A stretch of 53,774 nt of DNA from Comamonadaceae bacterium CG2_30_57_122 (GCA_001871515.1 MNXW01000314.1:1-53774), one strand, 5' to 3'. Numbered from the stretch's first letter, positions 23,890-43,290 are shown. Notes: generated from the sequence alone by a model not told the origin. Numbers and translations are program-made.

Positions 23890-23894
23890 AAGTC

Positions 23895-25889: not shown

Positions 25890-25893
25890 GGTA

Positions 25894-26076: not shown

Positions 26077-26130
26077 ATGCGAGTGGCTTTTTTATCGAAC
26101 TGTTACAAATACAAAGGTCATCACTTAATC

Positions 26131-26844
26131 ATGAAGCTGCTAGATTCATTGCAAAAAATAAGTCGCCAATTGTTGTTTATTTATGCCTGTGCCACGACGA
26201 GTTTTATAGTGAACGCGCAGCCCACGGGTTTGCTTTATGACCCGGAGCCGCCGCTAGATTCGGCCTATGTTCGTATTTTGATTGCGGCTCAAGGTGCGGC
26301 TGTTGATGTGCTAGTGGACGGGAAAATGCGTGTGAAGCAACTCCCGCCTGGAGTGCCCAGTGATTACCTCGTACTGCCTGCTGGACAGCATAGCCTGACA
26401 ATTCAGGCTGCAGGCAAACCCAAGCCCTACTTTTCAACTCCTCTTGAGGTGGTTCGTGGCCGCGCCTTGACGGTGGCATACACCTCTTTGCAAGCCGATG
26501 CCAAGCCTCATATTTTTGAAGACAAGGCTAACTCCAACAAACTCAAAGCCCTTATTGCGGTGTATCACCTGGATACCAAGGCTGGTGCGCTGGATGTCCT
26601 GAGTGCAGATGGCAAAACCAAAGTTTTTTCTGCGGTTCAGTTTGGACAATCCACCAATATCCAGGTGAATCCCATCAGCATTGAGTTGCTTGCCACCAAG
26701 TCAACTGACAAAAAAGCGTTGGCTCATACGCAGTTGTCCATGACACAAGGCGGAACCTATAGCATTGTTTTGTTGTCTGGATCAGGTGGCAAACTGAGAG
26801 CTTATACTTACCAAAATAAAATTGAAAGATATACCGGAAAATAA
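26131..26844 (+). CDS. AlgF/WssG-like O-acetylation accessory protein
   Basis: Signal peptide; LYDPEPPLDSAYVRI resembles the AlgF N-terminal LY.P.P...S.FVR motif; two beta-rich repeats. Confidence 0.75.
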   Translation: MKLLDSLQKISRQLLFIYACATTSFIVNAQPTGLLYDPEPPLDSAYVRILIAAQGAAVDVLVDGKMRVKQLPPGVPSDYLVLPAGQHSLTIQAAGKPKPYFSTPLEVVRGRALTVAYTSLQADAKPHIFEDKANSNKLKALIAVYHLDTKAGALDVLSADGKTKVFSAVQFGQSTNIQVNPISIELLATKSTDKKALAHTQLSMTQGGTYSIVLLSGSGGKLRAYTYQNKIERYTGK

Positions 26845-26908
26845 CGGATTTTAGATGTCAAAGATAGCAACTGTTAAATTCACAAAACTTAACTTTATTA
26901 ATTAAACC

Positions 26909-27910
26909 ATGATCAAATTAACACTTAACAAAATAGTGGCTGGCATGATGTTGGCAGTTACATTTTCTTCACCTGTTGTACAAGCCCAAGATTCCCCTTA
27001 TGTGGTGATTGGTAAAGACGGTTGGCTGTTCACAAAATATGAATTTGCCACTCCAGCCGATGCCACAGATACCAATGTCACCATTGGATTGTTGGAAAAA
27101 ACGAGCAAACTTTTTGAGCGTAGCGGCATTGCCTTGGCCTTGGTGATCGTGCCTTCAAAAATCAGAATTTATAGCGACAAGTTGCCCGACAACAAACCAT
27201 TGGATGCTTATACCGATGGAAAATACGAAGAAATTTATAAAACCATGCGTGAAAGCGGTGTTCATGTTGTCAACTTGAATCAGGTGTTTTTGAACAGTCC
27301 AAAGCGTGACAGTGACACACCCTTGTTTCTGCATCAAGATACCCACTGGGCAGCCACTGGCGCGCTGTTAGCAGCCGAAACCATCAAGAAAGAAATTGAT
27401 AACACGCCTGTATTGGCCACAGCTTTGCAAGCTGTACCTGAAGAAAAATTTGCATTGACTTGGGGCAACAAAAAAGTCATGAGTCGAGCCAGGGATTTGG
27501 TCAAGCAGTTGCCAGCCGGTGCACCTGTTTTTAAACCTGAACAGACCATGTTATACAAGGTGGTGAAGGAATCCAAATCGCAGGCGGGTTTGCTCAGTGA
27601 GGGCGATAAAGTGGCTATTACGGTGATCGGCAGCAGCTACACCAACAAAAATACGGGTTATCCAGATGGCTTGCGCTATACCTTGCAACGGAATTTGCTG
27701 GATATTTCAATCCCAGTTGACCAAGGGCCCTGGGTTGGAATGGAGGCTTATTTGAAGGATGATGCATTCAAAACCAATAAACCAAAATTAATCATTTGGG
27801 AAATCCCGGAACGTGAATTCCGTTCACCACCAAACTATAAATTTCGGGATGCTCGCTATATAAGTGACAACAATGATTGGCTTGCGCGAATAACTGACCT
27901 GCTGCATTAA
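26909..27910 (+). CDS. AlgJ/AlgX-family SGNH-like O-acetyltransferase
   Basis: GKDGWLF, DTHWAATGA (DxH), IGSSY, PKLIIWEIPER; signal peptide. Confidence 0.85.
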   Translation: MIKLTLNKIVAGMMLAVTFSSPVVQAQDSPYVVIGKDGWLFTKYEFATPADATDTNVTIGLLEKTSKLFERSGIALALVIVPSKIRIYSDKLPDNKPLDAYTDGKYEEIYKTMRESGVHVVNLNQVFLNSPKRDSDTPLFLHQDTHWAATGALLAAETIKKEIDNTPVLATALQAVPEEKFALTWGNKKVMSRARDLVKQLPAGAPVFKPEQTMLYKVVKESKSQAGLLSEGDKVAITVIGSSYTNKNTGYPDGLRYTLQRNLLDISIPVDQGPWVGMEAYLKDDAFKTNKPKLIIWEIPEREFRSPPNYKFRDARYISDNNDWLARITDLLH

Positions 27911-27934
27911 GAGATTGCATTTACTGGTATTTAT

Positions 27935-29317
27935 ATGAACAAGATAAGTGTTTATTTTGTCATGGCCAGTGCTTTGACTTGCCATTCGCTCTGGGCCCAG
28001 CAGGGAACAACCATCATCGGCAAGAATGATTGGTTGTTTTATCAGTATGAGATGACTGACCCAAGTTATTCCAATTTGGAAAACACCTCCCTGGATTTAA
28101 TTGCCAAGTTCAACCGGCAGCTTCGTGCCAATGGCATCAACCTGGTAGTGACCTTGGTGCCCTTGAAAATGCGGGTTTATTCCGAGCATTTGCCGGACTC
28201 GATCAAACTCAGTGAATACATGATTGGAAGCTATGCCCGCATGAGTGGTGTGCTTGCATCCGCCCAAGTTCACCTGGCCGACCTCAACACCGTATTTTTG
28301 GCCAGTCAGTCGCGCAACAGCGACGCACCTTTTTTCTTCCGGCTTGACTCGCATTGGGCTTCTGCTGGAGCCATGTTGGCGGCTGAAACCATTAAATCCA
28401 GCATCGATGCCAACTCTGAATTAAAGAAGACTCTGAACGCCCTACCTGTCGAAAAATTCAACATTATTTACGGTAAACGCAAGCGCCCGTCTAAGGGACG
28501 CGACTTGGCTGAGCAACTGCCTACAGGGTCTCCCAATTTTGCTGCAGAAATGGTGACACCAGTCAACATCAGCCGTGCCCAGCCGCCTAAAGAGGATCTG
28601 CTTGGCAACCGACTCCCCGTTGGAATTACTTTGGTGGGCAGCAGTTATTCACACGAATGGACTGGGTTTCCTGATGCCCTGCGCTACGTGTTGCAGCGTG
28701 ATGTGTTGGGCGTGTCGGTGGGCGCTGACCGTGGGTCGTGGGTCGGAATGGAAAGTTATCTGCGCGATGACTCGTTTCAGACCAAAGCGCCTGAAATTCT
28801 GCTTTGGGAACTGCCTGAGCGCGACATGAAAGCTCCTCCGGACTACAAATTTCGGGATGCCCGTTATGTGACGAACAACACCGAGTGGCTGCTGCGGGTT
28901 TCGGCATTGGTACAGGCCAAGTGTGAAATTGCCGAGCCACAAGCGCGTGTAGTAGCTACTGGACTGGGCTCAAAATCAGGGCAGTTAAAAGGCAACGATC
29001 TGGTCGCAGGACCAACGGTTGATGGAGATTTTGTTGAAATCAGTTTTGACAAACCGCTTGAAAAACTCGACTACCTGTCGGCGCGCCTAACTTTGGACGG
29101 CCCCAAGCTGGTCACACTGGAAGGCTCAGGTGCAGGTGTGGCCTCACGTCAGCTGGTGTACCCAGTCGCTGGGGACGATGCTTCGCATGTTTTTAAGGTG
29201 ACGGTTCCTTCCGCCACCAAGGGGTTCAGCAAAGTGCGAATTTTTCCTGGAAAAAGCAATGGATTTGCACTGCAAAACCTGCAGGTTTGCCGTCAACCGG
29301 CAGAGCTGTTGAAATAG
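27935..29317 (+). CDS. AlgX/AlgJ-family O-acetyltransferase with extra C-terminal beta domain
   Basis: GKNDWLF, DSHWASAGA, VGSSYS, LLWELPER; ~130-aa extension bracketed by two Cys; tandem paralog of the previous gene. Confidence 0.85.
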   Translation: MNKISVYFVMASALTCHSLWAQQGTTIIGKNDWLFYQYEMTDPSYSNLENTSLDLIAKFNRQLRANGINLVVTLVPLKMRVYSEHLPDSIKLSEYMIGSYARMSGVLASAQVHLADLNTVFLASQSRNSDAPFFFRLDSHWASAGAMLAAETIKSSIDANSELKKTLNALPVEKFNIIYGKRKRPSKGRDLAEQLPTGSPNFAAEMVTPVNISRAQPPKEDLLGNRLPVGITLVGSSYSHEWTGFPDALRYVLQRDVLGVSVGADRGSWVGMESYLRDDSFQTKAPEILLWELPERDMKAPPDYKFRDARYVTNNTEWLLRVSALVQAKCEIAEPQARVVATGLGSKSGQLKGNDLVAGPTVDGDFVEISFDKPLEKLDYLSARLTLDGPKLVTLEGSGAGVASRQLVYPVAGDDASHVFKVTVPSATKGFSKVRIFPGKSNGFALQNLQVCRQPAELLK

Positions 29318-29360: not shown

Positions 29361-30479
29361 TCAGTGAAGTAAACCAACGCTGTCTAACCAAGTCGGCTCC
29401 TTATCCAGTTTGTCGTATAAAAACCTTTCTGGTATTTCCCAAACGATGAGCTTAGGTTTGTTTTGTTTGAAAGCGTCATTATTTAGATAGGCGGTGGTGG
29501 CATCCAGCAAGCCGCCGCCGTCTTTGGCGGTATTGAGTACTTTGGTCATCAGGGCTTGTTGTAAAAATCCATGAAAATTCCCACGCATCGAATACGATGT
29601 ACCGGTCAGAGTCACTGCGACGGTAGCGTCGCCAAACAAATCGGCTGCTGTGTCGGCTTCGGCTTGTGAGGTGGTTAGAGGTGTCTCCCGATCCGGTTTA
29701 GGCCGCAAGCGATTTGGCATGTCGTCCAGACCCATCAAATGGATCAGGTCGCCAGCGCGTTCTGACTCTAGTCCGCTGGGTTCCGTCTTGAACCCGGTAG
29801 CTTTCAGCCCGAGCGCTAGTGCTTTGACTTGACGCGCGATGCGTTCAGCTGCAATTCGTGCTCCGGTCTGATTCCAATGGGTGTCAGTAAGGTAATAAAC
29901 GTCGTGGTGTTGGGCTGCCTGTGCCAGGGGTTCAAATAAGTCGACTGCGACCACCTCTTGTTGATTTAGTGCCGCGATAGCGGATGAATAGCGTGATTCG
30001 TTATAGCTTGGGTAGTGCCCATTTTTCAGAAATTGTGCATACACACGCGCCTTGTCTGGTACGAGTGCTACGACCAATTGCACCTGCTGGTTCTTTAAAG
30101 CACGAGCAGCGGCACCCAGAAGTTGCGCTCGGGCTGAAAGGTTTGCTTCACCATCAGGTTCGTACTTGAGTTCATCGGTCAAAAAAAGAAAATCGTTTTT
30201 ACCGACCCGGACTTGGTCGCCTGCACCGCCTGTCAACAGGTAGCGGGTGCTGTTGGCAGCAGCAATCAGTGTGGAGCGAATTGGAAGTTTTTGATCCAAT
30301 TGTTTTTCTAGTCCACCGGTCATGCGTCCGGCGCGAAAATCCGCCCAGGTGGAAGGGAAAGCAAGTCCATCGGGGTGCTGTGCGGCGGCGATCATTTGCC
30401 AAATTCCGACACTCATCACCGCCATAAAAACACCAAAGAACGGTGCGCATATCAAGGTTGATTTTTCAAGTTTCATCAT
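29361..30479 (-). CDS. AlgJ/WssI-like membrane-anchored O-acetyltransferase
   Basis: N-terminal TM; GKNDFLFL, LVPDKARVY, DTHWNQTGA, TGTSYS, PKLIVWEIPER. Confidence 0.87.
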   Translation of the reverse strand: MMKLEKSTLICAPFFGVFMAVMSVGIWQMIAAAQHPDGLAFPSTWADFRAGRMTGGLEKQLDQKLPIRSTLIAAANSTRYLLTGGAGDQVRVGKNDFLFLTDELKYEPDGEANLSARAQLLGAAARALKNQQVQLVVALVPDKARVYAQFLKNGHYPSYNESRYSSAIAALNQQEVVAVDLFEPLAQAAQHHDVYYLTDTHWNQTGARIAAERIARQVKALALGLKATGFKTEPSGLESERAGDLIHLMGLDDMPNRLRPKPDRETPLTTSQAEADTAADLFGDATVAVTLTGTSYSMRGNFHGFLQQALMTKVLNTAKDGGGLLDATTAYLNNDAFKQNKPKLIVWEIPERFLYDKLDKEPTWLDSVGLLH

Positions 30480-30497
30480 TCGTGCTTGTTGGGCAGT

Positions 30498-31883
30498 TTA
30501 AAACTGGAAATACAGAAAAGGAGTAAAAGACTGGGACGACAGCGTGGCTACCGCCCAGAGAAAAAATGGAATGATCAGGTAACGCAAAAAAACATTCTCC
30601 TGTCTTTTCAGCCAAGGCATGGCGTAAACCAGGGCAATGCCCAAGCCCAGCACCAGCAAACGGTCTGGGGTGACTTGCCAGGCTACAGCAGGGCTTAATT
30701 CGATGCCGTTGTACCCCATCATGCCGACGAACATGCGGGCAGCGCCGGAGCTATCGGTGGCTCGGAAAATGACCCAGCCAATCATGACCAGCAACATGGT
30801 TTTAATGACGCGCAACCAGCCGGGTAACACCGATTTACCCCATCGCTGTTCCCAATAGCGCTCAAGTACCAGAATGCCACCGTGCCAGGCTCCCCACAGA
30901 ACGAAGGTCCAGTTGGCACCGTGCCAAAGCCCACCCAACAGCATGGTCAAAAACAAATTGATGTAGGTACGAAGAACCCCTTTGCGGTTGCCACCCAGAG
31001 AAATATAAAGATATTCACGTAACCAATTGGACAAAGACATGTGCCAACGTTTCCAAAACTCGGTGATTGAACGTGACACGTACGGGTCATTGAAATTTTC
31101 AGGAAAGACAAAACCGATCATCAATGCCAGGCCAATAGCCATGTCGGTGTAACCACTGAAATCAAAAAACAACTGGATGGTGTAGGCCGCTGCACCCAAC
31201 CAGGCATCAGCCAGTGTCGGTACAGAAGCACCGAAAGTGGCATCGACCAAAGGAGCAACGGAGTCAGCAATGAGTACCTTTTTACAAAAACCCACCATGA
31301 ACACAAAACAACCACGGGTAAAACGGTCAACGGAATGAACCCGGCATCTGAACTGTTCGGCCAACAGGTGGTAGCGCAACACCGGGCCAGCGACCAAATG
31401 CGGAAACAAGGCAATAAAGGCAGCAAAATCGATGAGGTTACGCGCTGGCAAGGCCTCGCGCCGGTAAATGTCAACCAGGTAGCTGATGGCATGAAAGATG
31501 TAAAACGACAGTCCGATGGGGAGCAGGACATGGGCGAAAGGAACTGGTTGAAACCCCAACGCGAGCAATGCGGTATTGAAGCTGTCGACACCAAAATTGG
31601 CATACTTGAAATAAGCCAATGCAAGTAAATTAGCGGTCACACCCGCTGACAGCAAATGGTATCTGTGTAGTTCATGAACAGATGCGCCAATTGCCAGCGC
31701 AAACGCGTAGCTGATCAGGGTCACTCCGACCAGCAGGACTAAAAAATCCGGACGCCACCACGCATAAAAAAAATAACTGAACAGCAAAATCAGCAGAGAC
31801 TTCGCACGCCATGGGGTCAGGTAATAACAGACCAGGAAAATTGGAAGAAACGCAAAAAGGAAGATGTTTGAGCTAAATACCAT
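30498..31883 (-). CDS. AlgI/WssH-like MBOAT O-acyltransferase
   Basis: MVFSSNIFLF, LPIGLSFYIF, FDFSGYTDMAIG, EFWKRWHMSLS, GGLWHGANW, PFLYFQF. Confidence 0.93.
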   Translation of the reverse strand: MVFSSNIFLFAFLPIFLVCYYLTPWRAKSLLILLFSYFFYAWWRPDFLVLLVGVTLISYAFALAIGASVHELHRYHLLSAGVTANLLALAYFKYANFGVDSFNTALLALGFQPVPFAHVLLPIGLSFYIFHAISYLVDIYRREALPARNLIDFAAFIALFPHLVAGPVLRYHLLAEQFRCRVHSVDRFTRGCFVFMVGFCKKVLIADSVAPLVDATFGASVPTLADAWLGAAAYTIQLFFDFSGYTDMAIGLALMIGFVFPENFNDPYVSRSITEFWKRWHMSLSNWLREYLYISLGGNRKGVLRTYINLFLTMLLGGLWHGANWTFVLWGAWHGGILVLERYWEQRWGKSVLPGWLRVIKTMLLVMIGWVIFRATDSSGAARMFVGMMGYNGIELSPAVAWQVTPDRLLVLGLGIALVYAMPWLKRQENVFLRYLIIPFFLWAVATLSSQSFTPFLYFQF

Positions 31884-31885
31884 AT

Positions 31886-33022
31886 TTAATTCAGAATGCC
31901 TGTATCGTCAAGAATTGAATTGATTCGCATGGATTGATCTTGTCGCGCGCGTTGACGGAAAAAATGGTCAGTCAGTTCACCTTGATCGTAACCGAGCAAG
32001 AAAAATGCGATGCCACCAAGTTGTTGGTCAATCAAATAATCGGTCTTGCGCTCCAGCGCCCACCAGTCTTCAAACCAGCCTTCAACATAACGACCATTGG
32101 AGAGTTTGAATCTGTACGACGATGAGCCGCTTACGGCATCATGCGAGGCACCATACTGCTTGACACGGTCTCGCACGTTGACCGGGATGTCAGGCAAAAG
32201 AAGATGCTCTACAGGTGCAAACGTGGTGCTGGCTCCCTTGCCCAGCGTTGAACTACGGGGTGCATGTCGTAAGACGCGCCACTCATAACCGAACAATGGG
32301 AAACCCAATATCAGGCGTGATTTCGGGACACCCAGTTTCAAAGCCTCTGCAACAGCTTTTTCCCAAGTCAGAGCATCCTTTCCGGACAATGGCGCTACGG
32401 GGCCTGCGGTTTTACTACCAGTCCAGTGTGCGTCATAACCTTGCAATACGACTTGATCCACATCGGTCAAAGTGACAGCATCGTAGAGGACACTTTTGCC
32501 CCCCAACGGGAAAAAAATCGACAAGTTTTTTACTGGCTGCTGTTGATGCAGTTGCTGAGCAAGCGTCCGCACAAACTTTTGGTAACGAGCCAGCGTGGTC
32601 ATTTCGACCACTGTGTAAACTTCAAAATCAAGCTGTAAGCCAGCGACATCTTCATGTGCAACCAACGACATGCATTGTTCAAGCAGGTATTGTGCAGATG
32701 CATCAGATGCAAACAATTTCTCAAACGTAGGGCTGTCCAGTAAAGTCAGCGTCAAATCTAGTGGTGTCCCGCTTTCCCTGATGGCTTGGCGCAATTCAGG
32801 CCATTCATCGGGCCATCCATGACGTGGCTCAACAGAACCATCAGCCGCAACCTGAAGTTCAAAAAACTGCAATCGATCAAACTTTTCCAAAGGAACAGAA
32901 CGCCAACTCTCTGGTAACCACCAGCCCAGATATCCCCATGCTTTGGGGGTTTCTGCCAGGGCACTGACCTGAACGCATAGCAGGGCTATCAGCAACATAT
33001 GCCATGCACCTCGCAGTCTCAT
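31886..33022 (-). CDS. Exported GH18 (chitinase-like) glycoside hydrolase
   Basis: Signal peptide; AGLQLDFE (catalytic DxE retained), QGYDAHW, GPVAPL, KSRLILGFPLFGYEW, LGGIAFF. Confidence 0.82.
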   Translation of the reverse strand: MRLRGAWHMLLIALLCVQVSALAETPKAWGYLGWWLPESWRSVPLEKFDRLQFFELQVAADGSVEPRHGWPDEWPELRQAIRESGTPLDLTLTLLDSPTFEKLFASDASAQYLLEQCMSLVAHEDVAGLQLDFEVYTVVEMTTLARYQKFVRTLAQQLHQQQPVKNLSIFFPLGGKSVLYDAVTLTDVDQVVLQGYDAHWTGSKTAGPVAPLSGKDALTWEKAVAEALKLGVPKSRLILGFPLFGYEWRVLRHAPRSSTLGKGASTTFAPVEHLLLPDIPVNVRDRVKQYGASHDAVSGSSSYRFKLSNGRYVEGWFEDWWALERKTDYLIDQQLGGIAFFLLGYDQGELTDHFFRQRARQDQSMRINSILDDTGILN

Positions 33023-33768
33023 GGCTCGGTACAGTCCAGTAGCCAGTCAGTCACATATTGGATATCCAGACTGGCTTTACAGCTTGGGTCGTATTGGAGT
33101 ACCGGGCGTTCAAACGCCAGAGCATGCGCGACCCGTGGATCCTTGTGAATGGACACAGGGATCACTTGTTTGGGCTGGCTTGCACACAGAGCCAAACGAA
33201 CCTGATGCCCAAGTTTGCTGCTGGTAGGCATTTGATTGATCAGAAAGTTCAAACCAATGAACTCTGTGCGACCCGAGGTGTAATCTTCGACCAAAGTCTT
33301 GATTTTTTCCACGGTAGCAAATGAAGCTGCGTCAGCCAACAGTACAACCAACGCTCGTTGAGCAATTTGAAGCGCCTGTTTCAAAAAAACACCGGGTCCT
33401 GGTGGCGTATCCAGGATGACAAAATCAAAACGACTATCAGACAAAGATTCAATGCCTTCAGCAACCCAATTGGGGTGCTGTTTTAGTTGGGCTTCAAATT
33501 CTTCCAATTCAGTCTCGGAAACACGACCAAATGGAATGAACCCAACCCCAAAGGGGCTTTCAAAAATGGCTGAGGACGTGATGCCTTCGCGCACCAGCCC
33601 AGCAATTTCGTCTGGTTCAAGTCCCAGGTGTAACCTCTGTGAATTTTGTGGATCCAGGTCAATCAAGAGTACTTTTTTTTGACGTTGAGCTAGTGCCACG
33701 GCAATGTTGGCTGCAAGTGTGGACTTGCCAACGCCACCTTTGCCAGAGATAAATGCGATAACTTGCAT
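33019..33768 (-). CDS. bcsQ: BcsQ/YhjQ (MinD/ParA-family) ATPase, copy 2
   Basis: SGKGGVGKST deviant Walker A; DLDPQNSQRLHLG; LDTPPG; ADAASF. Confidence 0.85.
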   Translation of the reverse strand: MQVIAFISGKGGVGKSTLAANIAVALAQRQKKVLLIDLDPQNSQRLHLGLEPDEIAGLVREGITSSAIFESPFGVGFIPFGRVSETELEEFEAQLKQHPNWVAEGIESLSDSRFDFVILDTPPGPGVFLKQALQIAQRALVVLLADAASFATVEKIKTLVEDYTSGRTEFIGLNFLINQMPTSSKLGHQVRLALCASQPKQVIPVSIHKDPRVAHALAFERPVLQYDPSCKASLDIQYVTDWLLDCTEP

Positions 33769-34384: not shown

Positions 34385-36694
34385 TTAGGCTGTTTTGTTG
34401 AAACGTCGATCGATCACGCGTCGTAGTGGGCGGTACGCAACGGTAGCCAACAGGATGCTAATCAACAAACCCAGCAGTGCAAATAAAAGTGGCTGGTCTG
34501 AAAAAAACCAGGACACTTTGCTCAACCATGGCAGTGAGCCAAAGTAATAAGTGGCACTCACTTTTGCATGGTTGACGCTTTTGTCGTCAATGACAGCAAA
34601 ATCACCATGAACGGAAGCTACACGTTCGGTGTCGGTCAGCAAGTCAGAAATTTTGCGCAACCCAACGGGCTTGTCGGCATACAAGAACACCACGCTGCGT
34701 CCAGCTTGCAAAGGGGATTCAAACGCCATGAGTGCCGTCAAATCTCCCACATCGCTGATGTTCAGCGTGCTCTTGGGTAGCGGTGTGGTCTGAATATCAT
34801 GTTGCTCCCAGCGGTATGTTGGCCGCCAGATCGCGTCGGGTTCTCTGACTTTGCGTTCACCATTAATTTTGACCATGGGCAAGTAATCAGCCCATTTGTT
34901 CATCAGTGCCTGGTTTTTAGCAGAACCAATCACCAGTAAATCGCGCGATGCCATTTTGTCAACGTCAAGAGAGGAAACTACAGCGTGTTTTAACGCGGGA
35001 AAGCCAGTGGCCTCTCCCATGCGTCCCATAAGAGTCAAATAAAGTCCCATTTCATCAAGGTTGGGGCTCTCAGGTAAAACCACAGCAGTTTCCGAGAGGT
35101 CGGCCATACGGGTAAACGGGAATCCGATGTTGGCAAAATAAGCCAGATTTGGGAGCGCTGTGTAATGTGGGAAACCGCTGAAATCAATGGTTGATTCGGC
35201 ATCAATGGCAGCTTGCAGGTTGTCGGGTGGCAAATCTTGGCAGTCACCCTGTTTCAGGATGTCAAAGTAATAGGCCATCTGAAGTTGATCACGACCATTA
35301 AGAGCATAGGGTGCTATGTGGAGCAGCTCTTGGTTGGGTGTGACGTTTTGAGTGCTTGAACTAGAAGGCTCCAGAGGGTTACCGGGTTTACTTGGTTCAT
35401 TGAGCGCCAGAGCTTGCAAAAAATGATTGTTCAGACTGATATTCAGACTTGAATTGTGTTGGTTTGGCAAGCGTGTTGCCCGGTATTTCAGCTTGATGGG
35501 TGTACCGGGCGTGCGCCAGGTGAACAAATCGGGTGAGACACGGTAATTGAGTCGAATGACATCCGGGTAATAACCTTGCACGCGTAACTCTTCAGGGCGT
35601 GCCAGCTCACCAAAGCGTACTGGGCGATCTGTTGGAATCCAGGCGGGTGCATCATAAGGTTGGCGAGGTGCTGCCTCGGTTTCCTTGGTGACTGTGACTT
35701 GTTGACCCGACAACGTTGGGCTTATCAAAGCAACAGCACGAGCGGCGCGCATCAGTTCATCATCGGTGCCGCCAGTGATGACCAGTAACCTGGCCAAAGA
35801 GTTGTTGGGGTGTGGCTGGATCGATACCGTCGCAGCTGAGGTGGCTTTTATGTCAAAGACGCTTTCACCAGCCTGCAAAAACACCACCGCATTACCTTCA
35901 GGCAACGCGTTTAGTAAGACCGGGAATTGCGCCCCACGTGCGCCAGCCTGCAAACCAAACCACGACGAAACAATACCTGCAGCTCGAAGTGTGCCTAACG
36001 AAGGTGCAGATGCAAACACAAAAGGTAAGCGCAAGGAGCCTGTTTCCCGCTTGTCCAGGAAGGGTGACGGTAATGTTTTCAGATCGGGCGTGGTAGGAAT
36101 GCGAGCCAGTGTCAGCTCAAGCCGGCCCAGATCGCTCAAAGTAAGCCATAACGAAGAGTGCGTGGGATCCTCGCACTGCCGTGTGTAATGGCCGATCAAG
36201 GTAAAGGTTAAAAAATTCATGTCGTTAAACATGCGAGGGTCAAGGCGAATCTCACGCGAGTTGCCCAATTCTTTGTCTTTTGGCAGCGCCTCAATCATGG
36301 CAATCCGGTCATTAAGCGCAATTTTCAGGTGGCTTAGCTCTGGGATCAAACTGGGTGAATAATCGTACGCAAGGCGCAATTTCGCAGCCACCACTATCTC
36401 ATCGGCACGGATAGGGAACGCCAAAGTTTGAGAGCCACTGACACCTCTCAATTTAATCGCTGACCAGGCTCCCATTTGTTTGAAGGTCAGGGACACAACG
36501 CGTTGAGATGCAGCAGCTTCGGTTTTTCCGCTTGGGACAAGCACTTCTTCCTTGGGCAGATTTTTTGTAGCTTTTGACGGGAGTGATTTGGACTCACCAC
36601 TGGCCATACCGAAAATCATGGCCACAACAAAAAGAGCCGATGCCAAGCATTGCACAGGTTTCAGTCTGAAACTTGATGGTTGGGAATTGGTCAT
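34385..36694 (-). CDS. bcsB: Cellulose synthase periplasmic subunit BcsB
   Basis: YDYSPSLIPELSH, LIGHYTRQCEDPTHSSLW, PYDAPAWIPTDRPV, GFPFTRMADLSET, C-terminal TM; ATGA overlap with the bcsA stop. Confidence 0.93.
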   Translation of the reverse strand: MTNSQPSSFRLKPVQCLASALFVVAMIFGMASGESKSLPSKATKNLPKEEVLVPSGKTEAAASQRVVSLTFKQMGAWSAIKLRGVSGSQTLAFPIRADEIVVAAKLRLAYDYSPSLIPELSHLKIALNDRIAMIEALPKDKELGNSREIRLDPRMFNDMNFLTFTLIGHYTRQCEDPTHSSLWLTLSDLGRLELTLARIPTTPDLKTLPSPFLDKRETGSLRLPFVFASAPSLGTLRAAGIVSSWFGLQAGARGAQFPVLLNALPEGNAVVFLQAGESVFDIKATSAATVSIQPHPNNSLARLLVITGGTDDELMRAARAVALISPTLSGQQVTVTKETEAAPRQPYDAPAWIPTDRPVRFGELARPEELRVQGYYPDVIRLNYRVSPDLFTWRTPGTPIKLKYRATRLPNQHNSSLNISLNNHFLQALALNEPSKPGNPLEPSSSSTQNVTPNQELLHIAPYALNGRDQLQMAYYFDILKQGDCQDLPPDNLQAAIDAESTIDFSGFPHYTALPNLAYFANIGFPFTRMADLSETAVVLPESPNLDEMGLYLTLMGRMGEATGFPALKHAVVSSLDVDKMASRDLLVIGSAKNQALMNKWADYLPMVKINGERKVREPDAIWRPTYRWEQHDIQTTPLPKSTLNISDVGDLTALMAFESPLQAGRSVVFLYADKPVGLRKISDLLTDTERVASVHGDFAVIDDKSVNHAKVSATYYFGSLPWLSKVSWFFSDQPLLFALLGLLISILLATVAYRPLRRVIDRRFNKTA

Positions 36695-38838
36695 TTTTTC
36701 TTCCATTTTTGAATCAAATTGCGAAAACGAGCGGCTTTGCCCGCTAAAAAAACACGCATGTCGGCAAGGCTTTGACTTAACCAGCGCGGCCACGGTTGAT
36801 CAGCATGTCGACCTGGTAACCACTTGGGCCAATCAAGGCCGCGAGAGAACACGGCAACTGCAAGGGCGTTGTAGTCAGTTTGGGCTGAGGCATCAATACG
36901 CACCTGCAGCGTCTGTTCATGCAATGAGACGATTTGGGCAGGAAAAGAAGATTCTTGCCGACGATGAAATATTGAAATTTGAACAAACGATTCAAGCGGC
37001 AAAGCAAGTCCAGTTGGTAATTGAATGCTAAGTTGTGTGTTTGGAAAGTTTTGTGTCAGGCAAGAAAGTGAACGTCCGTAAGGAAGTTTGACCATCACCG
37101 GTAATTCCTGGCATGCTCGCTGATATTTTTGAATGGCGCTGGCTTCTTCGGTCACACAAAGCATTGCTGCCAAGCGCATCAGGTTGAAGGCCGACCACAA
37201 AAGGTAGAGTGATGTGAGGTCGTTGGGGATTTCATTTGAATTGAACCAGAACCAGCTGCCTACTACGAGCCCACTCAGGTTGAGCCAACCGATCAAGCCG
37301 TAGGTTATGGCCAGTATCCTGTCGGATGGCTTGACTGAATTACTTGGGGTTTGGCTGGGCACGCTCCAAAATTGATGCACCTTGGTACGAATGAATGTCA
37401 GGGTGGTGGGCAGTAAAAGATACCAGGCAAGCATGGTTTCCCGAATTTCAGAAAAAAGACCCCATCTGCTCCCCGTGTTCAGCCTGGCCAGCGCGATGTA
37501 TCCAAGTAGCACGTGAGGCAGCGCATAAAGTGCCCAAAGATCGGAAGCGGTGTTGATGATGTGAAGGCCAGTGAGCAAGTAAGCTACTGGTGCAGTCATA
37601 AAAACAAGACGAACGCACGGATAGTAAAACTGCATGGCGGCAACCAAATCATTCAGGTATTTTTGCCAACGCAAGATGATGCTGTTGAATGGCTGATTAA
37701 CACAAAACATTTCAGTGTCAGCATCAGGGTTTTGTGGTGGCAACGCACCTGCGCGCCAGCCGACGTAAGCGCAGCCAAAGCCGAGGGCTTGTAAATGTAG
37801 CGCGGTATGGCGTTGCTTGGTGACGGGATTACTTGAAAAACCTCCTGCTGCAATCAGCATGGAGCGGCGCGTAATAGAAAAAGACAGACGATCTCGGGAT
37901 TCATTGAACAGCATCCGGTTGTGTTCATCGAGTCCAGGAGCCAAAAAATGATCAGGTGTTTCAACCATGCCCAATGATTGATGGCGCACCAGCCAGCCCA
38001 TGGTTTGTTTTAAAAGCTTTGCCTGTGGCCGTTGATCACCATCCAGCACCAGAATGAAATCGCCAGTGCTTTGGTTCAAGGCCTGGTTGACACTTTCGAA
38101 TCGGTCTTGCCCTGGTTGCTCAGACGCAAAATAATGAACCTCTGAGCTGCTGCACAGTGACTGGAGGTCTGCGCGCGGGTATGCATCCAAAACATAGACA
38201 ATCATTTTTTTTTTCGGCCAAGACATCGCCAGGGAAGCCAAGATGGTGTCATTGGCTATTTCGATAGATGAATTGGAAGCCACAATAAAAACATCCACGC
38301 TGGGCCATTCATGCGTGTCCTGGGGCATGGGTTGTTGCGGCAAAGTGAGAGGCCAGATGCCCTTCAGGACATGCATTCCAGTCAGTAAAAAAAGATACAA
38401 CTCTGCTACGAAAAAACCAAGGCTCAATAAAAAATCTGCAGTGGAACGGGTATCGAGCGTGGCACTAAAGCGCCAATTGAGATACCTCAAGCTGACCATA
38501 CAAGCCATGGCAGCAAGCATCAGTGTGAAAAAAGTTCCAGAAAATCGCCTGATATAAAGCGCAACAGCGAGTAAAAAAATGGAAAAACCAAACTGGCCTA
38601 GCGGTGACATCCGAACCTGCAGCAGCAAACCAAAAAACAATAGGCAGATGGCCGCAACCAGGACGTTGCTCCCTGGAACAGACCAAATCCTGGCATGGGT
38701 CAACCGGTTCGACCAATGGTTGACCTTGCCGCGCAAATAAGGCAGTGCGGAACTGGCGACCCTCGTTTTCCCCCAGCGTTCACGCCAAAGTGAAAGCAGC
38801 AAGCGCGGACTTACTGGTTCAATGTATTGATGACCCAT
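36691..38838 (-). CDS. bcsA: BcsA-like cellulose synthase catalytic subunit, catalytically degenerate
   Basis: Colinear with BcsA (SLRYLNWRFSATL, WPSVDVF, PilZ-like C-terminus, VFSRG..W) but PTYNE, DDG, HAKAGN, FFCGS, TED, QRxRW and PilZ RxxxR motifs are lost; start codon uncertain. Confidence 0.82.
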   Translation of the reverse strand: MGHQYIEPVSPRLLLSLWRERWGKTRVASSALPYLRGKVNHWSNRLTHARIWSVPGSNVLVAAICLLFFGLLLQVRMSPLGQFGFSIFLLAVALYIRRFSGTFFTLMLAAMACMVSLRYLNWRFSATLDTRSTADFLLSLGFFVAELYLFLLTGMHVLKGIWPLTLPQQPMPQDTHEWPSVDVFIVASNSSIEIANDTILASLAMSWPKKKMIVYVLDAYPRADLQSLCSSSEVHYFASEQPGQDRFESVNQALNQSTGDFILVLDGDQRPQAKLLKQTMGWLVRHQSLGMVETPDHFLAPGLDEHNRMLFNESRDRLSFSITRRSMLIAAGGFSSNPVTKQRHTALHLQALGFGCAYVGWRAGALPPQNPDADTEMFCVNQPFNSIILRWQKYLNDLVAAMQFYYPCVRLVFMTAPVAYLLTGLHIINTASDLWALYALPHVLLGYIALARLNTGSRWGLFSEIRETMLAWYLLLPTTLTFIRTKVHQFWSVPSQTPSNSVKPSDRILAITYGLIGWLNLSGLVVGSWFWFNSNEIPNDLTSLYLLWSAFNLMRLAAMLCVTEEASAIQKYQRACQELPVMVKLPYGRSLSCLTQNFPNTQLSIQLPTGLALPLESFVQISIFHRRQESSFPAQIVSLHEQTLQVRIDASAQTDYNALAVAVFSRGLDWPKWLPGRHADQPWPRWLSQSLADMRVFLAGKAARFRNLIQKWKKK

Positions 38839-39575
38839 AGCGCAAGTTGTGCAAAGTCATGGCTGGCTTGTCCATAAGGGGCATAAGCCAGTACCGGTTG
38901 CTGAAATGCAAGTGCTTCGCTGACTGCTTCGTCGGCATGAATCGCGATCGGAGCCATGCGCTTGCCCAGACGTTGTTGCAGCCATTGGGCGGCATCGCGA
39001 TTTAAGGGCTCGCCTTGGTCGGTTTGATTGAGTACGTAATAAACGAGCGCAAGTGGGTTGCCACATTGCCCCTGTTCCAGCCACGACTCCATGGCAGGAA
39101 TGGTGGCGTAAGAGCCGGCATCCGGTAGCAGCACCATTAGAACAAGGTCGGCGCAAGCAAATACTTGATGAAGGTAAACACTGGGACCCGGCGGCGTGTC
39201 AATCAGCACCACTGCATCGTGGTCAAGTTTTGCACGCTTGATTTGTGAACCAATCCAATCTGGTTGTTCTGCCAGCAACAACTCAAAAGTTTCCCGCTCT
39301 GTTTCTGTCGCGTCGCCATAGGGTAGGCAGACCACATTGAATGGCGTTGAGATAGCCGCGTTCGTCCAATCCCCTAAGTTGAGGGCTCTTTGGGAAATGC
39401 CGGATGTCTGCCAATTGTCTAATCCAAAATGCCAATGCAAGGCATTTTGAGGGTCTAGATCCAGTGCGGCGACGCGATGTTCGCCCAACTTTGCCGCCAA
39501 TGCTGCTGCAAGATTGGCTGTGGTTGACGTCTTGCCGACGCCACCTTTCATCGAAACAATGCCAATGATGCTCAT
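38811..39575 (-). CDS. bcsQ: BcsQ/YhjQ ATPase, copy 1
   Basis: SMKGGVGKTS, DLDPQNALHWHFG, IDTPPGPSVY, PDAGSYATIP, DEAVSEALA. Confidence 0.88.
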   Translation of the reverse strand: MSIIGIVSMKGGVGKTSTTANLAAALAAKLGEHRVAALDLDPQNALHWHFGLDNWQTSGISQRALNLGDWTNAAISTPFNVVCLPYGDATETERETFELLLAEQPDWIGSQIKRAKLDHDAVVLIDTPPGPSVYLHQVFACADLVLMVLLPDAGSYATIPAMESWLEQGQCGNPLALVYYVLNQTDQGEPLNRDAAQWLQQRLGKRMAPIAIHADEAVSEALAFQQPVLAYAPYGQASHDFAQLALWVINTLNQ

Positions 39576-40255
39576 CGTTTGCCCAGTCGACTAAAGATAG
39601 AGGAGATTTTGCTTGCAGGCTTGACGACCAGATTTGATTTGCCTTCAAGCCGATTAAATAACTGACGAAGTGAATCTGTATCGGTCACTGGTTGCGATGT
39701 TGTCGTTCGGTTGGCATGTGAACGAAGACCGTTGCCTGCAAACAGGCTCCCGCTCACTTTTTCACTGGTGTCTTCTGTACCTGCAGCAATGGGATTTGCG
39801 TGTTGACGAGGGAGAGGGGGAGACGGCTCGGTCTCTGTGGCGTGGGCTGTTCGATTTGGCAACTGCGCAGGGGTGCTGTAGATCGGCGTGCTGACTTTTG
39901 CAGATATCGGCTTTGAATCTGAATTTGAATTTGAATCTGAATTTGAATTTGAATTTGAATCGTGGCGAGTACCAGTCATGCGCTTCAGGCTTAATGCCAG
40001 ATCCATGGTTTCTGTTGGCAAAGACAGAGCAGGCTTGCGTACGCTCACACCAGTTTTCTGTTGGCTCACCCAGCAGGCGCGATCTTGATCGGAAAGCGCG
40101 GGCGTGGTGTTGGATTTTTCGGGCGCAAGGGCTTTAAACAATGGCCAGCGTTGCGCAGCTTCGCTCGCGGCGGTTGCATTGGCGGCCTGAAAGGCAGCAT
40201 CATCTGGTGCGATTGACCTGAATAAAGAAGTGAATTCGTTCATGGAACTGGGCAT
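39572..40255 (-). CDS. bcsP: BcsP-like protein
   Basis: LF....D...FQ N-terminus, RWPLF motif, low-complexity Pro/Ser middle, LRQLFNRLEG; located between bcsD and bcsQ. Confidence 0.7.
   Translation of the reverse strand: MPSSMNEFTSLFRSIAPDDAAFQAANATAASEAAQRWPLFKALAPEKSNTTPALSDQDRACWVSQQKTGVSVRKPALSLPTETMDLALSLKRMTGTRHDSNSNSNSDSNSNSDSKPISAKVSTPIYSTPAQLPNRTAHATETEPSPPLPRQHANPIAAGTEDTSEKVSGSLFAGNGLRSHANRTTTSQPVTDTDSLRQLFNRLEGKSNLVVKPASKISSIFSRLGKR
39914..39961. repeat. In-frame hexanucleotide tandem repeat (TGAATY x8)
   Basis: Eight TGAAT(T/C) units encoding DSNSNSNSDSNSNSDS in the BcsP-like ORF. Confidence 0.9.
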
Positions 40256-40274: not shown

Positions 40275-40745
40275 TTAGTTCACAGCAAGTTCAAAACGCA
40301 AGCGCAGCGTCATGGCATCCGATTCGCCCGTATCACGCACTTGCATGGCGGCGCTGGCACCAAGCACGCTGAAAATGTTATGGTAAAAGCCCTCAAGCAG
40401 GCCAACGCACCAGCTCAGAGACTCATCACCAAAAGCCTCTGCCAATGGAGCGGCTTGATGGGTGATGCCAATGGAATCTCCAGCATCCGTAAGATTAACC
40501 CAGCCCCAATTGATTTGAGCCCAGAAAACGTTCAGGCCCTCCTCAAGTTCAGCGAGTGTATTGACATTCATGAACTGTTCTTGCACTTCGTTGGCAAAGC
40601 GTGTGCCAATTTTGGAAAAAAGAAGCCGTAGTTCTACTGGGCTCGCCGAGGCCGACAACTCCAAGGCCATTGCGCGCAGCACCGCAAGCCATTGAAGGGA
40701 TACCTGTTGATTTCTGAAATATTTTTCCAAATTGTTGTTGTTCAT
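40275..40745 (-). CDS. bcsD: Cellulose synthase subunit BcsD
   Basis: IGTRFA, LEEGLNVFWAQINWGWV, ITHQAAP, LLEGFY pattern; ~156 aa; first gene of the bcs run. Confidence 0.8.
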   Translation of the reverse strand: MNNNNLEKYFRNQQVSLQWLAVLRAMALELSASASPVELRLLFSKIGTRFANEVQEQFMNVNTLAELEEGLNVFWAQINWGWVNLTDAGDSIGITHQAAPLAEAFGDESLSWCVGLLEGFYHNIFSVLGASAAMQVRDTGESDAMTLRLRFELAVN

Positions 40746-40913
40746 TGCAAATCCTGAAAATTGGGAAGTGTGCAAGCGCACAACTCTATACGCTTATGTA
40801 AAGGCAAAGGCAAAGTTAATATAGTACACACTGAGCGAGTTGCAGGACATCTCTTTAAAAAAACGAAATGTATGTGAAGTATTGCCTGTATTGCTCCTGC
40901 GCTCCCTTGATAA

Positions 40914-41333: not shown

Positions 41334-41383
41334 CGTCCATGTTCAACAAGGACACCCCAAAGCATGAAACATGCGTGCCCTGC

Positions 41384-41429
41384 GTAGGGCGGCTTTCAAC
41401 CCGCCATGGCCGACTGAAGTCGACCCTAC
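41384..41429. repeat. Inverted pair of GTAG-type REP sequences (REPIN-like)
   Basis: GTAGGGCGGCTTTCAACCCGCC on + and GTAGGGTCGACTTCAGTCGGCC on -, within a TTAACGT...ACGTTAA-bounded segment (41330-41471). Confidence 0.75.
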
Positions 41430-41496
41430 GACACGCCTTTCTTGTCGGCTGTGGGCGTTGTTTCACGTTAAGGTTAATTTTCAAGGACTCTGAGAC

Positions 41497-43290
41497 ATGA
41501 TGCGAAATTTTTACGTGGGGTTGAGCCATTTGTTTCGGCGACTGACATGGTTGTCCTTGGCATGCCTGTTTTTGGTGACTCCATTGAATTTAGTGGCCAG
41601 CCCCCTCAAAGAGGTATACCTGTATGCCAGCCCAATCACGGCAACTTTTTTCGCTGCCAACGGTACAAGCTATGACGGACTCAAGCAACACTGGCGTGAA
41701 TACTTGCGCCCTTTGGGTATGGACTACCGTGAGGTTTCGCGAGCCAATTTGCTCGCCGGCTTAAAACCAGGCGTGCTGGTCCTGGGCTCGGCGGCGTTGC
41801 TGGACGAGCAAGAACGCAAGGCCATTGAAGTTTTTGGGGATTCAGGCGGCAGCATCTTGATGACATGGGGCACAGGCGTGCGTGATGGTCGGGGTAAGTG
41901 GGTAGGCTATGGGTTGATTGAAAAAATTTTTCAACTCAAAGTCAACGGCAAGGTGTTGCCCCAAAACAATGAGGATAACAACGAACGGTTCATTAACACC
42001 TTTGGGGATGGCCCGCTCACCTGGTCAATGCCCGCAGGAGAGCGACTTTTTTTGGGCGAGGTGTCCGAGATGTCAATTCGCGTGGACTCCCCGTATCTGG
42101 CAGCGCGCTATTTCAATTGGAACCGCCAACCCTTGCCCAAGAACTCCAATGGCGCGATTGCGTTTCTTGAGAAAGGTGCTTCACGCCGCGTGTACTTCGG
42201 TTTTTCAGAGTCGAGTTGGGAATACGACCCGAACATGGATTTTCCAAAATTGCTGAATTCAGTGATGGCCTGGCTCAAGCACGAACCCAGCCTTTTCAAG
42301 GCGGCCTGGCCAAATGGCAACTTGTCGGCGCAATTGTTGGAAATGGATACCGAGGACAAGTACTTCAACGCAGTCAACTTTGCCAGCATGCTCGACGCTG
42401 CCAAGTTGCGTGGCACTTTTTATTCTCTAACCAGTGTGGCACGCCAGTACCGCGACATTGTTAAACAAATGTCCCAAAAGCATGAGATTGGCTACCACGG
42501 TGAAATTCATGTCGGCTACAAAGGTAAAACCGCTGCGGTGCAAGCCAAGCGTTTGGACATCATGGCCACCGAAATGAAAGACATTGTGGGCACGCTGGCG
42601 TTCTCCAAAGTGACCGGTTTTCGTGCACCTACCGAATCATCAGATGAAATTACCGACAAGATTTTGCGAAAACTGGGTGTGCAACACAACGTCACCGGTC
42701 CTTCATCCTCTGAGGGACGTTTGCCATTTTTCTCTGAAGCAGAACCTGCACTCAGTACGCAAGAGGCCATCATTGGTCTGCCGCGCACCCAAATGGATGA
42801 CCTGAACTACCTTGCCCTGCGCGTGAGCGAAGAAAAAGCTGCCGAATTGATCATGTTGGACTTTGACTACCTGCATGAGGCCGGAGCGCTTGGCGTGGTG
42901 TCGGTTCATTCACAAAATTTTGCCTCGGATGATTTGATGACCCGGCTGATGCCGCGATATATCCAGAAAATCCAGCAGTTTCCTGGTGCGGTATGGACGG
43001 CATCGGGAGCCGACATTGCGGCCTGGTGGCGGGCACGCGATCGGGTCATCCAACGATCCGCCAAAGGCGATGCGACTCAATTGAAGTTTGATGTAAAAGC
43101 ACCTGGTAGCGTCAAAGGATTGACCTTCATGGTGGTTCATGCCGCTGCCGAAGGCCTGCCCAAAGCGGTCATGGCCAGCGGTTCGGGTAGCCCACAGCCT
43201 GAAATCAGAAGGGTGGATGCCTATCGAACAGCGATTGTGTTCAAGGATGAGCTAAAACCCGGGTCATACGCTTACACGGTAGCGTTTTGA
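41497..43290 (+). CDS. Exported CE4-like polysaccharide deacetylase, paralog C
   Basis: Signal peptide; MDTE, GYHGEIH, GFRAP, LPRTQMDD, SVHSQNF; colinear with paralog A. Confidence 0.8.
   Translation: MMRNFYVGLSHLFRRLTWLSLACLFLVTPLNLVASPLKEVYLYASPITATFFAANGTSYDGLKQHWREYLRPLGMDYREVSRANLLAGLKPGVLVLGSAALLDEQERKAIEVFGDSGGSILMTWGTGVRDGRGKWVGYGLIEKIFQLKVNGKVLPQNNEDNNERFINTFGDGPLTWSMPAGERLFLGEVSEMSIRVDSPYLAARYFNWNRQPLPKNSNGAIAFLEKGASRRVYFGFSESSWEYDPNMDFPKLLNSVMAWLKHEPSLFKAAWPNGNLSAQLLEMDTEDKYFNAVNFASMLDAAKLRGTFYSLTSVARQYRDIVKQMSQKHEIGYHGEIHVGYKGKTAAVQAKRLDIMATEMKDIVGTLAFSKVTGFRAPTESSDEITDKILRKLGVQHNVTGPSSSEGRLPFFSEAEPALSTQEAIIGLPRTQMDDLNYLALRVSEEKAAELIMLDFDYLHEAGALGVVSVHSQNFASDDLMTRLMPRYIQKIQQFPGAVWTASGADIAAWWRARDRVIQRSAKGDATQLKFDVKAPGSVKGLTFMVVHAAAEGLPKAVMASGSGSPQPEIRRVDAYRTAIVFKDELKPGSYAYTVAF

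What the first reader, a model, noticed from the sequence alone, without database searches (positions are those of the whole stretch)
36691..38838. Full-length BcsA pseudoenzyme
The 715-aa ORF has no stops or frameshifts and is ATGA-coupled to bcsB, yet PTYNE reads ASNSS, DDG reads DAY, HAKAGN reads RFESVN, FFCGS is gone, TED reads TKQ (~37810-37825), the QRxRW segment is missing and the PilZ RxxxR reads QRACQ. Only DxD (DGD) remains. Losing so many motifs with the frame and TM segments intact argues for selection on a structural role (channel, BcsB anchor, BcsQ/E docking) and not random decay.
Basis: partly seen in the sequence, partly recalled or inferred. Interest (0 to 1): 0.85.

Follow-up and report, generated by a model that had tools for sequence, protein, structure and literature searches.

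The report
Dead cellulose synthase kept as scaffold
This gene is a cellulose synthase that has lost its catalytic residues yet is kept intact under selection in dozens of related bacteria, where it likely serves as a membrane scaffold for a neighbouring, different sugar-polymer synthase.

Summary
Observation confirmed and extended. The 715-aa BcsA-like ORF (BcsA*) lacks TED, QRxRW, FFCGS, HAKAGN, the gating loop and the PilZ c-di-GMP motifs.

It is not a one-off decay. It belongs to a family of about 80 full-length proteins. The sampled members form one clade, sister to an intact type Ic/Wss BcsA. dN/dS is 0.24, against 0.09 for the intact paralog. Constraint is strongest on the N-terminal helix, PilZ barrel and C-tail, and weakest on the active-site half and channel helices.

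In the genus (144 genomes) BcsA* occurs in 29. Of these, 27 carry a PgaC-like GT2 module (BcsE, TPR/porin, GT2, deacetylase) and only 12 an intact BcsA. Two closed genomes have no BcsA or BcsC domain hit. BcsA* and the GT2 module form one same-strand gene run in two other genera.

Best reading: a duplicated bcs operon lost catalysis, BcsZ and the BcsC porin. BcsA* likely holds the BcsB, BcsQ/P/D and BcsE assembly for the GT2 system. Binding and polymer identity are untested, and a distant GT2 module exists without any bcsAB. No description was found in nine literature searches.

The parts
36691..38838 (-). BcsA*: full-length BcsA homologue without catalytic, gating-loop or c-di-GMP motifs
   Evidence: (TIGR03030 308.6 bits, cut-off 699.1)
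38767..38796 (-). Conserved N-terminal amphipathic motif LSLWRERWGK (aa 15-24) of BcsA*
37042..37050 (-). PilZ NFP signature replacing DxS of DxSxxG (79 of 82 members)
36811..36834 (-). Conserved C-tail motif DWPKWLPG (aa 669-676)
34385..36694 (-). BcsB, intact, ATGA-coupled to bcsA*
   Evidence: (PF03170, 680.6 bits), dN/dS 0.05-0.15
38811..39575 (-). BcsQ (first copy), Walker A KGGVGKT
39572..40255 (-). BcsP-like protein
   Evidence: (NF040718, 21.7 bits, below cut-off 55) and its position in the operon
40275..40781 (-). BcsD
   Evidence: PF03500
33787..34377 (-). 196-aa N-terminal remnant of BcsC (no porin)
   Evidence: 36% identity to aa 30-156 of the BcsC of G038
33019..33768 (-). Second BcsQ (WssJ-like position)
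31886..33022 (-). GH18 hydrolase (GLQLDFE: catalytic DxE kept); the operon has no bcsZ
29361..31883 (-). AlgI/WssH MBOAT (30498-31883) and AlgJ/WssI-like SGNH protein (29361-30479)
26077..29317 (+). AlgF/WssG-like protein and two AlgX-like SGNH proteins
23895..25889 (+). Polysaccharide deacetylase-like protein 2
21340..23235 (-). BcsE, with RPGD aligned to the E. coli RTGD c-di-GMP I-site
19868..21343 (-). TPR protein with predicted outer-membrane barrel (PgaA-like lead)
18522..19877 (-). PgaC/IcaA-like GT2 synthase with intact DDGS, DGD, AED and QRYRW
16410..18302 (-). Polysaccharide deacetylase-like protein 1
41497..43290 (+). Polysaccharide deacetylase-like protein 3

Best explanation
BcsA* is a BcsA homologue that has lost its catalytic motifs and is kept under purifying selection, and it likely acts as the membrane scaffold that holds BcsB, BcsQ/P/D and BcsE for a neighbouring PgaC-like synthase predicted to make a non-cellulose polymer. 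Steps: (1) Shown by sequence: a type Ic/Wss bcs operon was duplicated, and one copy lost the active site, the BcsC porin and BcsZ. (2) Shown: that copy kept an intact BcsB, two BcsQ, BcsP and BcsD. (3) Inferred: the TM helices of BcsA* still seat the BcsB tail anchor, and its PilZ barrel, N-terminal helix and C-tail still dock BcsQ/BcsP and a membrane partner. (4) Inferred: c-di-GMP is read by BcsE (I-site kept), not by BcsA*. (5) Inferred: the GT2 polymerises a GlcNAc-type glycan that the CE4 deacetylases, the Wss acetylases and GH18 process and the TPR/porin exports.
For: Family: 84 of 224 retrieved proteins are 600-800 aa with none of four catalytic motifs, 125 have three or four, and 15 are short or remote. 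34 of 36 sampled motif-less sequences form one clade (support 1.0), sister to intact BcsA of the same genus. Catalytic Asp of TED in 4 of 82, QRxRW Trp in 0 of 82. Selection: dN/dS 0.24 (bootstrap 0.22-0.27, six pairs); 0.25 against 0.087 for the intact paralog in the same three genome pairs. Lowest in N-terminus 0.15, PilZ 0.16, C-tail 0.21; highest in GT C-half 0.34, TM3-8 0.27. Partner bcsB 0.05-0.15. Co-occurrence: 27 of 29 BcsA* genomes have the GT2 (25 whole, 2 contig-end pieces), against 4 of 115 others; the same 12 of 74 high-quality genomes have both. 6 of 6 genomes reached through named loci have the GT2, and 5 of 5 tested lack an intact BcsA. One same-strand run joins both modules in L026 (Azonexus) and in G639, found in an unselected family draw. 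No PF03552 or BcsC-porin hit in 5 of 5 genomes, including closed G020 and G057. No PgaD in 5 of 5. Precedent: in E. coli BcsQ buttresses the BcsA PilZ and the NTD packs on the C-tail and recruits a membrane partner (PMC11470070, passages); Listeria PssC, an IcaA-like GT2, sits with a BcsB orthologue and an I-site receptor (PMC4125290, passages).
Against: G605 (99% complete) and G650 (94%) carry a more distant GT2 module (53-55% identity) with BcsE-like, TPR/porin, deacetylase and GH18 parts but no bcsA, bcsB or bcsQ hit. So this kind of synthase can exist without the scaffold. 4 genus genomes have the GT2 without BcsA* (3 of them with intact BcsA; G002, 89% complete, has neither), and G584 has the GT2 with only an intact bcs operon. 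2 BcsA* genomes (86% and 75% complete) show no GT2. 12 of 29 carriers keep an intact BcsA, so a role tied to cellulose is possible there. The modules lie far apart in G020 (about 63 kb) and G057 (about 1.3 Mb). The genomes are kin, so the counts overstate independence. GH18 is missing in 11 of 29. No experiment, expression data or polymer chemistry supports the mechanism.
Confidence: 0.55

Rival explanations
1. BcsA*-BcsB serves the intact cellulose synthase or the Wss acetylation proteins (a second BcsB crown or an acetylase platform), and the GT2 link is only genomic hitch-hiking.
For: 12 of 29 carriers have an intact BcsA. algI-algJ follow the bcsA* operon in most loci. In G038 and G058 the acetylase genes sit with bcsA*, not with the intact operon.
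Against: 17 of 29 carriers have no intact BcsA, including closed G020 and G057. algI/J do not follow the operon in G020, G057, G042 or L026. An acetylase platform in genomes without cellulose synthase would still need another polymer.
Confidence: 0.15
2. BcsA*-B-Q-P-D is a localisation or c-di-GMP hub that is co-regulated with the GT2 module through BcsE-BcsQ but never touches the GT2 or its polymer.
For: The best-conserved surfaces are cytosolic. BcsE binds BcsQ in E. coli (PMC8892547, passages). The GT2 module stands alone in G605 and G650.
Against: It does not explain why periplasmic BcsB stays under strong constraint (dN/dS 0.05-0.15) where no cellulose synthase is found.
Confidence: 0.13
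3. BcsA* is a passive translocation channel for the glycan made by the short GT2.
For: Mid- and outer-channel residues are kept: Rhodobacter Y80 in 82 of 82, W558 in 78 of 82, an aromatic at F426 in 59 and at Y433 in 63, E/D at E477 in 63 of 82.
Against: Entrance residues M300, F301, Y302, F316 and W383 are deleted or lost. The V555 position, Asn in intact enzymes, is Tyr/Phe in 77 of 82. TM3-8 is about five times more relaxed than in the intact paralog (0.34 against 0.07). Processive GT2 synthases use their own TM pore (established knowledge).
Confidence: 0.1
4. The gene is slowly decaying, kept open only for translational coupling or BcsB stability.
For: dN/dS is about three times that of intact BcsA and branches are long. 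G057 has lost the C-tail motif. G059 has lost bcsA* and bcsB from the operon.
Against: Length 717 +/- 17 aa across 82 proteins that are 22-57% identical to the query. New family-specific motifs are fixed (NFP in 79 of 82; WPxWLP; LSLWRERW). dN/dS is far below 1 in every region.
Confidence: 0.04
5. BcsA* has a new catalytic activity on another substrate.
For: The GT-A fold and D218 are kept.
Against: No new conserved polar constellation: only 6 of 85 positions in the GT C-half reach 70% conservation, and DxD is complete in 10 of 82.
Confidence: 0.03

Closest known systems
BcsA/CelA cellulose synthase (E. coli 7LBY, 9FMV; Rhodobacter 4HG6, 4P00)
   Same: Homologous over aa 56-684 (E 7e-76); same TM, GT-A and PilZ-type elements; coupled to bcsB.
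   Different: No catalytic base, QxxRW, FFCGS, HAKAGN, FxVTxK or DxSxxG; about 27 residues deleted from the GT C-half (median 125 against 152); below the TIGR03030 cut-off.
Type Ic / Wss (acetylated cellulose) bcs operons with bcsD, bcsP, two bcsQ and AlgI/J/F/X-like genes
   Same: Gene order bcsD-P-Q-A-B-(C)-Q2 plus acetylase genes; the sister clade has the intact version (operon types from PMC8892547 passages).
   Different: Synthase dead, BcsZ absent, BcsC cut to a 139-287-aa stub or absent in most loci, GH18 often follows the operon.
Pga/Ica PNAG systems (PgaABCD)
   Same: The neighbouring GT2's best NCBIfam hit is PgaC_IcaA (224.9 bits); TPR plus predicted barrel; CE4 deacetylases.
   Different: Below the cut-off (422.3); no PgaD found; BcsE, GH18 and a Bcs scaffold are associated instead.
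Listeria PssA-E
   Same: A short IcaA-like GT2 encoded with a BcsB orthologue and an I-site c-di-GMP receptor (PMC4125290, passages).
   Different: Gram-positive, and the passages read describe no dead BcsA, BcsQ/P/D or porin; orthology was not tested.

Membership tests
BcsA cellulose synthase (active) | D,D,D,Q(Q/R)xRW signature with TED catalytic base | tested here: not met
   TKQ; QRxRW deleted; TED Asp in 4 of 82 and Trp in 0 of 82 family members
BcsA cellulose synthase (active) | FxVTxK gating loop and FFCGS/HAKAGN substrate motifs | tested here: not met
BcsA cellulose synthase (active) | PilZ RxxxR and DxSxxG c-di-GMP motifs | tested here: not met
   QKYQR and NFPNTQ in the query; both Arg in 19 of 82 against 86 of 91 intact; NFP in 79 of 82
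BcsA cellulose synthase (active) | TIGR03030 score above 699.1 | tested here: not met
   308.6 bits
BcsA superfamily (homology) | TM domain, GT-A domain and C-terminal PilZ-type barrel; descent from BcsA | tested here: met
   VIA Z 22.8, 507 aligned, rmsd 15.5 A to 9FMV
BcsA superfamily (homology) | Same domain packing and an open channel | tested here: inconclusive
   Global rmsd about 15 A with pTM 0.72; model coordinates could not be inspected
Type Ic / Wss operon | bcsD, bcsP, bcsQ (two copies), bcsB, AlgI/J/F/X-like genes | tested here: met
   (BcsP below its cut-off)
Type Ic / Wss operon | Active BcsA, BcsZ and full BcsC | tested here: not met
   No other BcsA, no BcsZ, only a BcsC stub in G000 (84.7% complete); none of 5 genomes hit PF05420 or PF03552
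Pga (PNAG) system, for the GT2 module | GT2 with intact D,D,D,QxxRW | tested here: met
   DDGS, DGD, FAED, QRYRW in 8 of 8 orthologues printed
Pga (PNAG) system, for the GT2 module | TIGR03937 above 422.3 | tested here: not met
   224.9 bits
Pga (PNAG) system, for the GT2 module | PgaD partner | tested here: not met
   PF13994 found in 0 of 5 genomes; the E. coli control rang
Pga (PNAG) system, for the GT2 module | PgaA-type TPR porin | tested here: inconclusive
   TIGR03939 19.9 bits; Atlas feature hit 0.98 to a PgaA-barrel cluster
Pga (PNAG) system, for the GT2 module | Product is beta-1,6-GlcNAc | not testable with these tools
   needs polymer chemistry
Listeria Pss-type system | Orthology of GT2 and BcsB to PssC and PssD | not tested
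   functional analogy only

The most novel reading that the evidence does not exclude
A cellulose-secretion machine was hollowed out and re-used: a dead BcsA holds the BcsB crown and the BcsQ/P/D/E regulators as an adapter for an unrelated PgaC-like synthase, giving a chimeric Bcs-Pga secretion system that makes an uncharacterised modified amino-sugar polymer.
Probability: 0.4. Interest if true: 0.86.

Novelty: new variant of a known kind. Interest (0 to 1): 0.72.

Why it matters
It would be a natural pseudo-synthase subunit in a synthase-dependent secretion system, and it separates BcsA's scaffolding role from its catalysis. The conserved N-terminal, PilZ and C-tail surfaces give a map of what accessory subunits need from BcsA. 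It would show that Bcs accessory modules can be swapped onto another synthase, which bears on engineering polysaccharide secretion. Practically, several members are annotated 'cellulose synthase (UDP-forming)', so cellulose capacity is being over-called in these genomes.

Tried and rejected
Complex prediction of the GT2 with two BcsA* segments (aa 9-165 and 383-700) gave no answer (score 0.00, mark 0.32); it is no evidence either way.

RNA runs: four metatranscriptome assemblies cover 22-42 kb, with single contigs crossing convergent gene junctions. DNA carry-over is likely, so they are not used as expression evidence.

The GT2 structure model was poor (pLDDT 60.4) and was not used. The BcsA* model matches BcsA elements but with global rmsd 15-20 A; I draw no conclusion on domain packing.

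GH18 as the obligate partner was rejected: it is in 18 of 29 carriers and also occurs with GT2 modules lacking BcsA* (G059, G584, G605, G650). Intact BcsA as the obligate partner was rejected (12 of 29).

An order-wide draw found the GT2 in 0 of 330 other genomes. BcsA-like hits were in 38, and all 29 fetched were intact type. In the family draw 20 other genomes had intact-type BcsA and only one of them (G584) had the GT2. So intact BcsA does not generally bring the GT2.

P0205 and P0220 passed the motif filter but group with intact enzymes and were dropped. Several BcsQ dN/dS rows compare paralogs and were ignored. The row labelled E477 is really Y479; E477 was redone.

The plasmid search gave only hits below 60% identity, the top ten at 27-29%. 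The Atlas returned only ordinary BcsA clusters. The deacetylase had no useful PDB match. Three look-ups of earlier scan findings were empty.
Full report
Observation. The ORF at 36691-38838 (-) encodes 715 aa and overlaps the bcsB start by ATGA. It aligns to E. coli BcsA over aa 56-684 (E 7e-76) but scores 308.6 bits against a cut-off of 699.1 for the CelA model. PTYNE, DDG, HAKAGN, TED, FxVTxK, RxxxR and DxSxxG read VASNS, DAY, QDRFES, TKQ, FWSVPS, QKYQR and NFPNTQ; FFCGS and QRxRW fall in deletions. The roles of these motifs are taken from passages of PMC8892547. The AlphaFold model (pLDDT 81.6, pTM 0.72) keeps TM helices, a GT-A domain and a C-terminal beta-barrel. Its best structural matches are BcsA entries, though with global rmsd of 15-20 A.

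It is a family. Searches returned 224 proteins. 84 are 600-800 aa with none of four catalytic motifs, 125 have three or four, and 15 are short or remote. The motif-less set was defined by that absence, so I checked it with a tree. Of 36 motif-less sequences sampled with 29 intact ones, 34 form one clade (support 1.0, stem 0.54), sister to the intact BcsA of the same genus; two fell among intact enzymes and were dropped. The remaining 82 average 717 +/- 17 aa and lack about 27 residues in the GT C-half. They have the TED Asp in 4 cases, a complete DxD in 10 and both PilZ arginines in 19, against 90 and 86 of 91 intact enzymes for the last two. They share fixed motifs of their own: LSLWRERWGK, TxNFP (NFP in 79 of 82) and RGxDWPxWLPG. 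Named carriers include Rhodoferax, Polaromonas, Azonexus, Noviherbaspirillum galbum and Hydrogenophaga. The window's organism is therefore probably Rhodoferax-like (inference).

Selection. NG86 dN/dS over six genome pairs is 0.24 (bootstrap 0.22-0.27). In the three pairs that carry both genes it is 0.25 for BcsA* and 0.087 for intact BcsA. By region, BcsA* is most constrained in the N-terminal helix (0.15), PilZ (0.16) and C-tail (0.21), and least in the GT C-half (0.34) and TM3-8 (0.27). The adjacent bcsB stays at 0.05-0.15. Of the channel residues listed for Rhodobacter BcsA (mapped through), the entrance set (M300, F301, Y302, F316, W383) is deleted or lost. Y80, W558, F426 and Y433 largely persist, and the V555 position has become Tyr/Phe in 77 of 82. 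So decay is rejected and a channel role is weakened but not excluded.

Context. The window holds bcsD-P-Q-A*-B-(196-aa BcsC stub)-Q2-GH18-algI-algJ, then algX-algX-algF and a deacetylase on the other strand. Next comes bcsE-TPR/porin-GT2-deacetylase. No other BcsA, no BcsZ and no full BcsC is found in this assembly, which is 84.7% complete. G038 and G058 carry both this operon and an intact P-Q-A-B-Z-C-Q2 operon about 50 kb away. With the tree, this points to operon duplication followed by loss of catalysis.

Co-occurrence in all 144 genus genomes: BcsA* 29, GT2 29, TPR/porin 31, GH18 19, intact BcsA 16. 25 BcsA* genomes have the whole GT2 and 2 more have contig-end pieces; 4 of the other 115 have the GT2. 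Among 74 high-quality genomes the same 12 have both. Only 12 of 29 have an intact BcsA. G000, G020, G057, G169 and G027 show no cellulose-synthase or BcsC-porin domain. Six genomes reached through named loci all have the GT2, and five tested have only BcsA*. The 16 loci are not added to the genus counts because they may overlap them. In L026 the order is D-P-Q-A*-B-Q2-E-TPR/porin-GT2-deacetylase. In G639, from an unselected draw of 215 family genomes, it is TPR/porin-GT2-deacetylase-D-P-Q-A*-B-stub-Q2-algI-algJ. These genomes are related, so the counts are not independent events.

Results against. G605 and G650 have a more distant GT2 module (53-55%) with BcsE-like, porin, deacetylase and GH18 parts and no bcsA, bcsB or bcsQ hit. 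G030, G047, G059 and G584 have the GT2 with intact BcsA only, G002 has neither BcsA, and G045 and G066 show BcsA* without the GT2. In G020 and G057 the modules are unlinked. The scaffold is thus not a universal requirement of this GT2 type. Among GT2s above 70% identity, however, all but G002 come with a BcsA, dead or intact.

Mechanism. Shown: loss of motifs, selection, gene context and co-occurrence. Inferred: BcsA* is inactive and does not sense c-di-GMP. It seats BcsB and docks BcsQ/BcsP, as intact BcsA does in E. coli, where BcsQ buttresses PilZ and the NTD/C-tail surface recruits a membrane partner (PMC11470070, passages). BcsE, whose RPGD aligns with the E. coli I-site, would supply the c-di-GMP input. 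The GT2 has intact motifs and dN/dS 0.06-0.09, resembles PgaC below cut-off and has no PgaD in five genomes. It would be the working synthase. The CE4 and GH18 neighbours suggest a GlcNAc-type polymer; that is a guess from family knowledge. Listeria Pss offers an analogy of an IcaA-like GT2 encoded with a BcsB orthologue (PMC4125290, passages).

Novelty. Nine full-text searches found no description of a natural catalytically dead BcsA family or of this gene set. I read passages of PMC8892547, PMC11470070, PMC4125290, PMC13453990, PMC7112194 and PMC6821405; the other hits I saw only as listings. The library lacks most subscription papers. I did not read the operon classification of Romling and Galperin 2015 or the work on beta-proteobacterial BcsD/BcsP scaffolds. 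I did not open any supplements; the operon tables of PMC7112194 could list such loci. Verdict: a real, conserved pseudo-synthase and a new variant of the Bcs system. I put dead-and-selected at about 0.9 and the scaffold-for-GT2 mechanism at 0.55.

Noticed in passing
window 41331-41472: A roughly 141-bp interspersed repeat with 154 blastn hits of 100 bp or more in G000; MITE- or REP-like.
   Followed up: partly
window 23560-23895 and 25890-26076: Two more repeat families in intergenic gaps (46 and 50 hits of 100 bp or more in G000).
   Followed up: partly
G000 contig C175, 12713-16172: A second pair of the same long polysaccharide-deacetylase-like genes elsewhere in the genome.
   Followed up: no
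window 16410-18302, 23895-25889, 41497-43290: Three paralogous 600-660-aa CE4 proteins with a long N-terminal region of no Pfam family; the second has an altered His motif (YMGDSF).
   Followed up: partly
L109 (G059:C22): Operon reads bcsD-P-Q-Q2-GH18-bcsE-TPR/porin-GT2-deacetylase with bcsA* and bcsB missing, beside divergent bcsB, bcsZ and bcsC genes.
   Followed up: partly
L203:10777-13374 and L204:11858-15115: BcsE-like and TPR/porin regions lie in one ORF in the stand-alone GT2 modules of G605 and G650, next to a deacetylase-Ig-domain protein.
   Followed up: partly
L206:4455-7154 (G154): A longer BcsC remnant (TPRs, no porin domain hit) follows bcsA*-bcsB, suggesting stepwise BcsC truncation.
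   Followed up: partly
L014-L015 and L009-L010 (G058, G038): An exopolysaccharide cluster resembling Wzx/Wzy-exosortase loci (read from the translations only) sits between algJ and algX, inside the Bcs/GT2 cluster.
   Followed up: no
window 39888-39960: A hexamer-type tandem repeat inside bcsP (SNSNSNSD) varies in length among run contigs.
   Followed up: no
window 11179-12483: An HD-domain (HD_5/DUF3391) protein, a possible c-di-GMP phosphodiesterase, 4 kb from the cluster.
   Followed up: no
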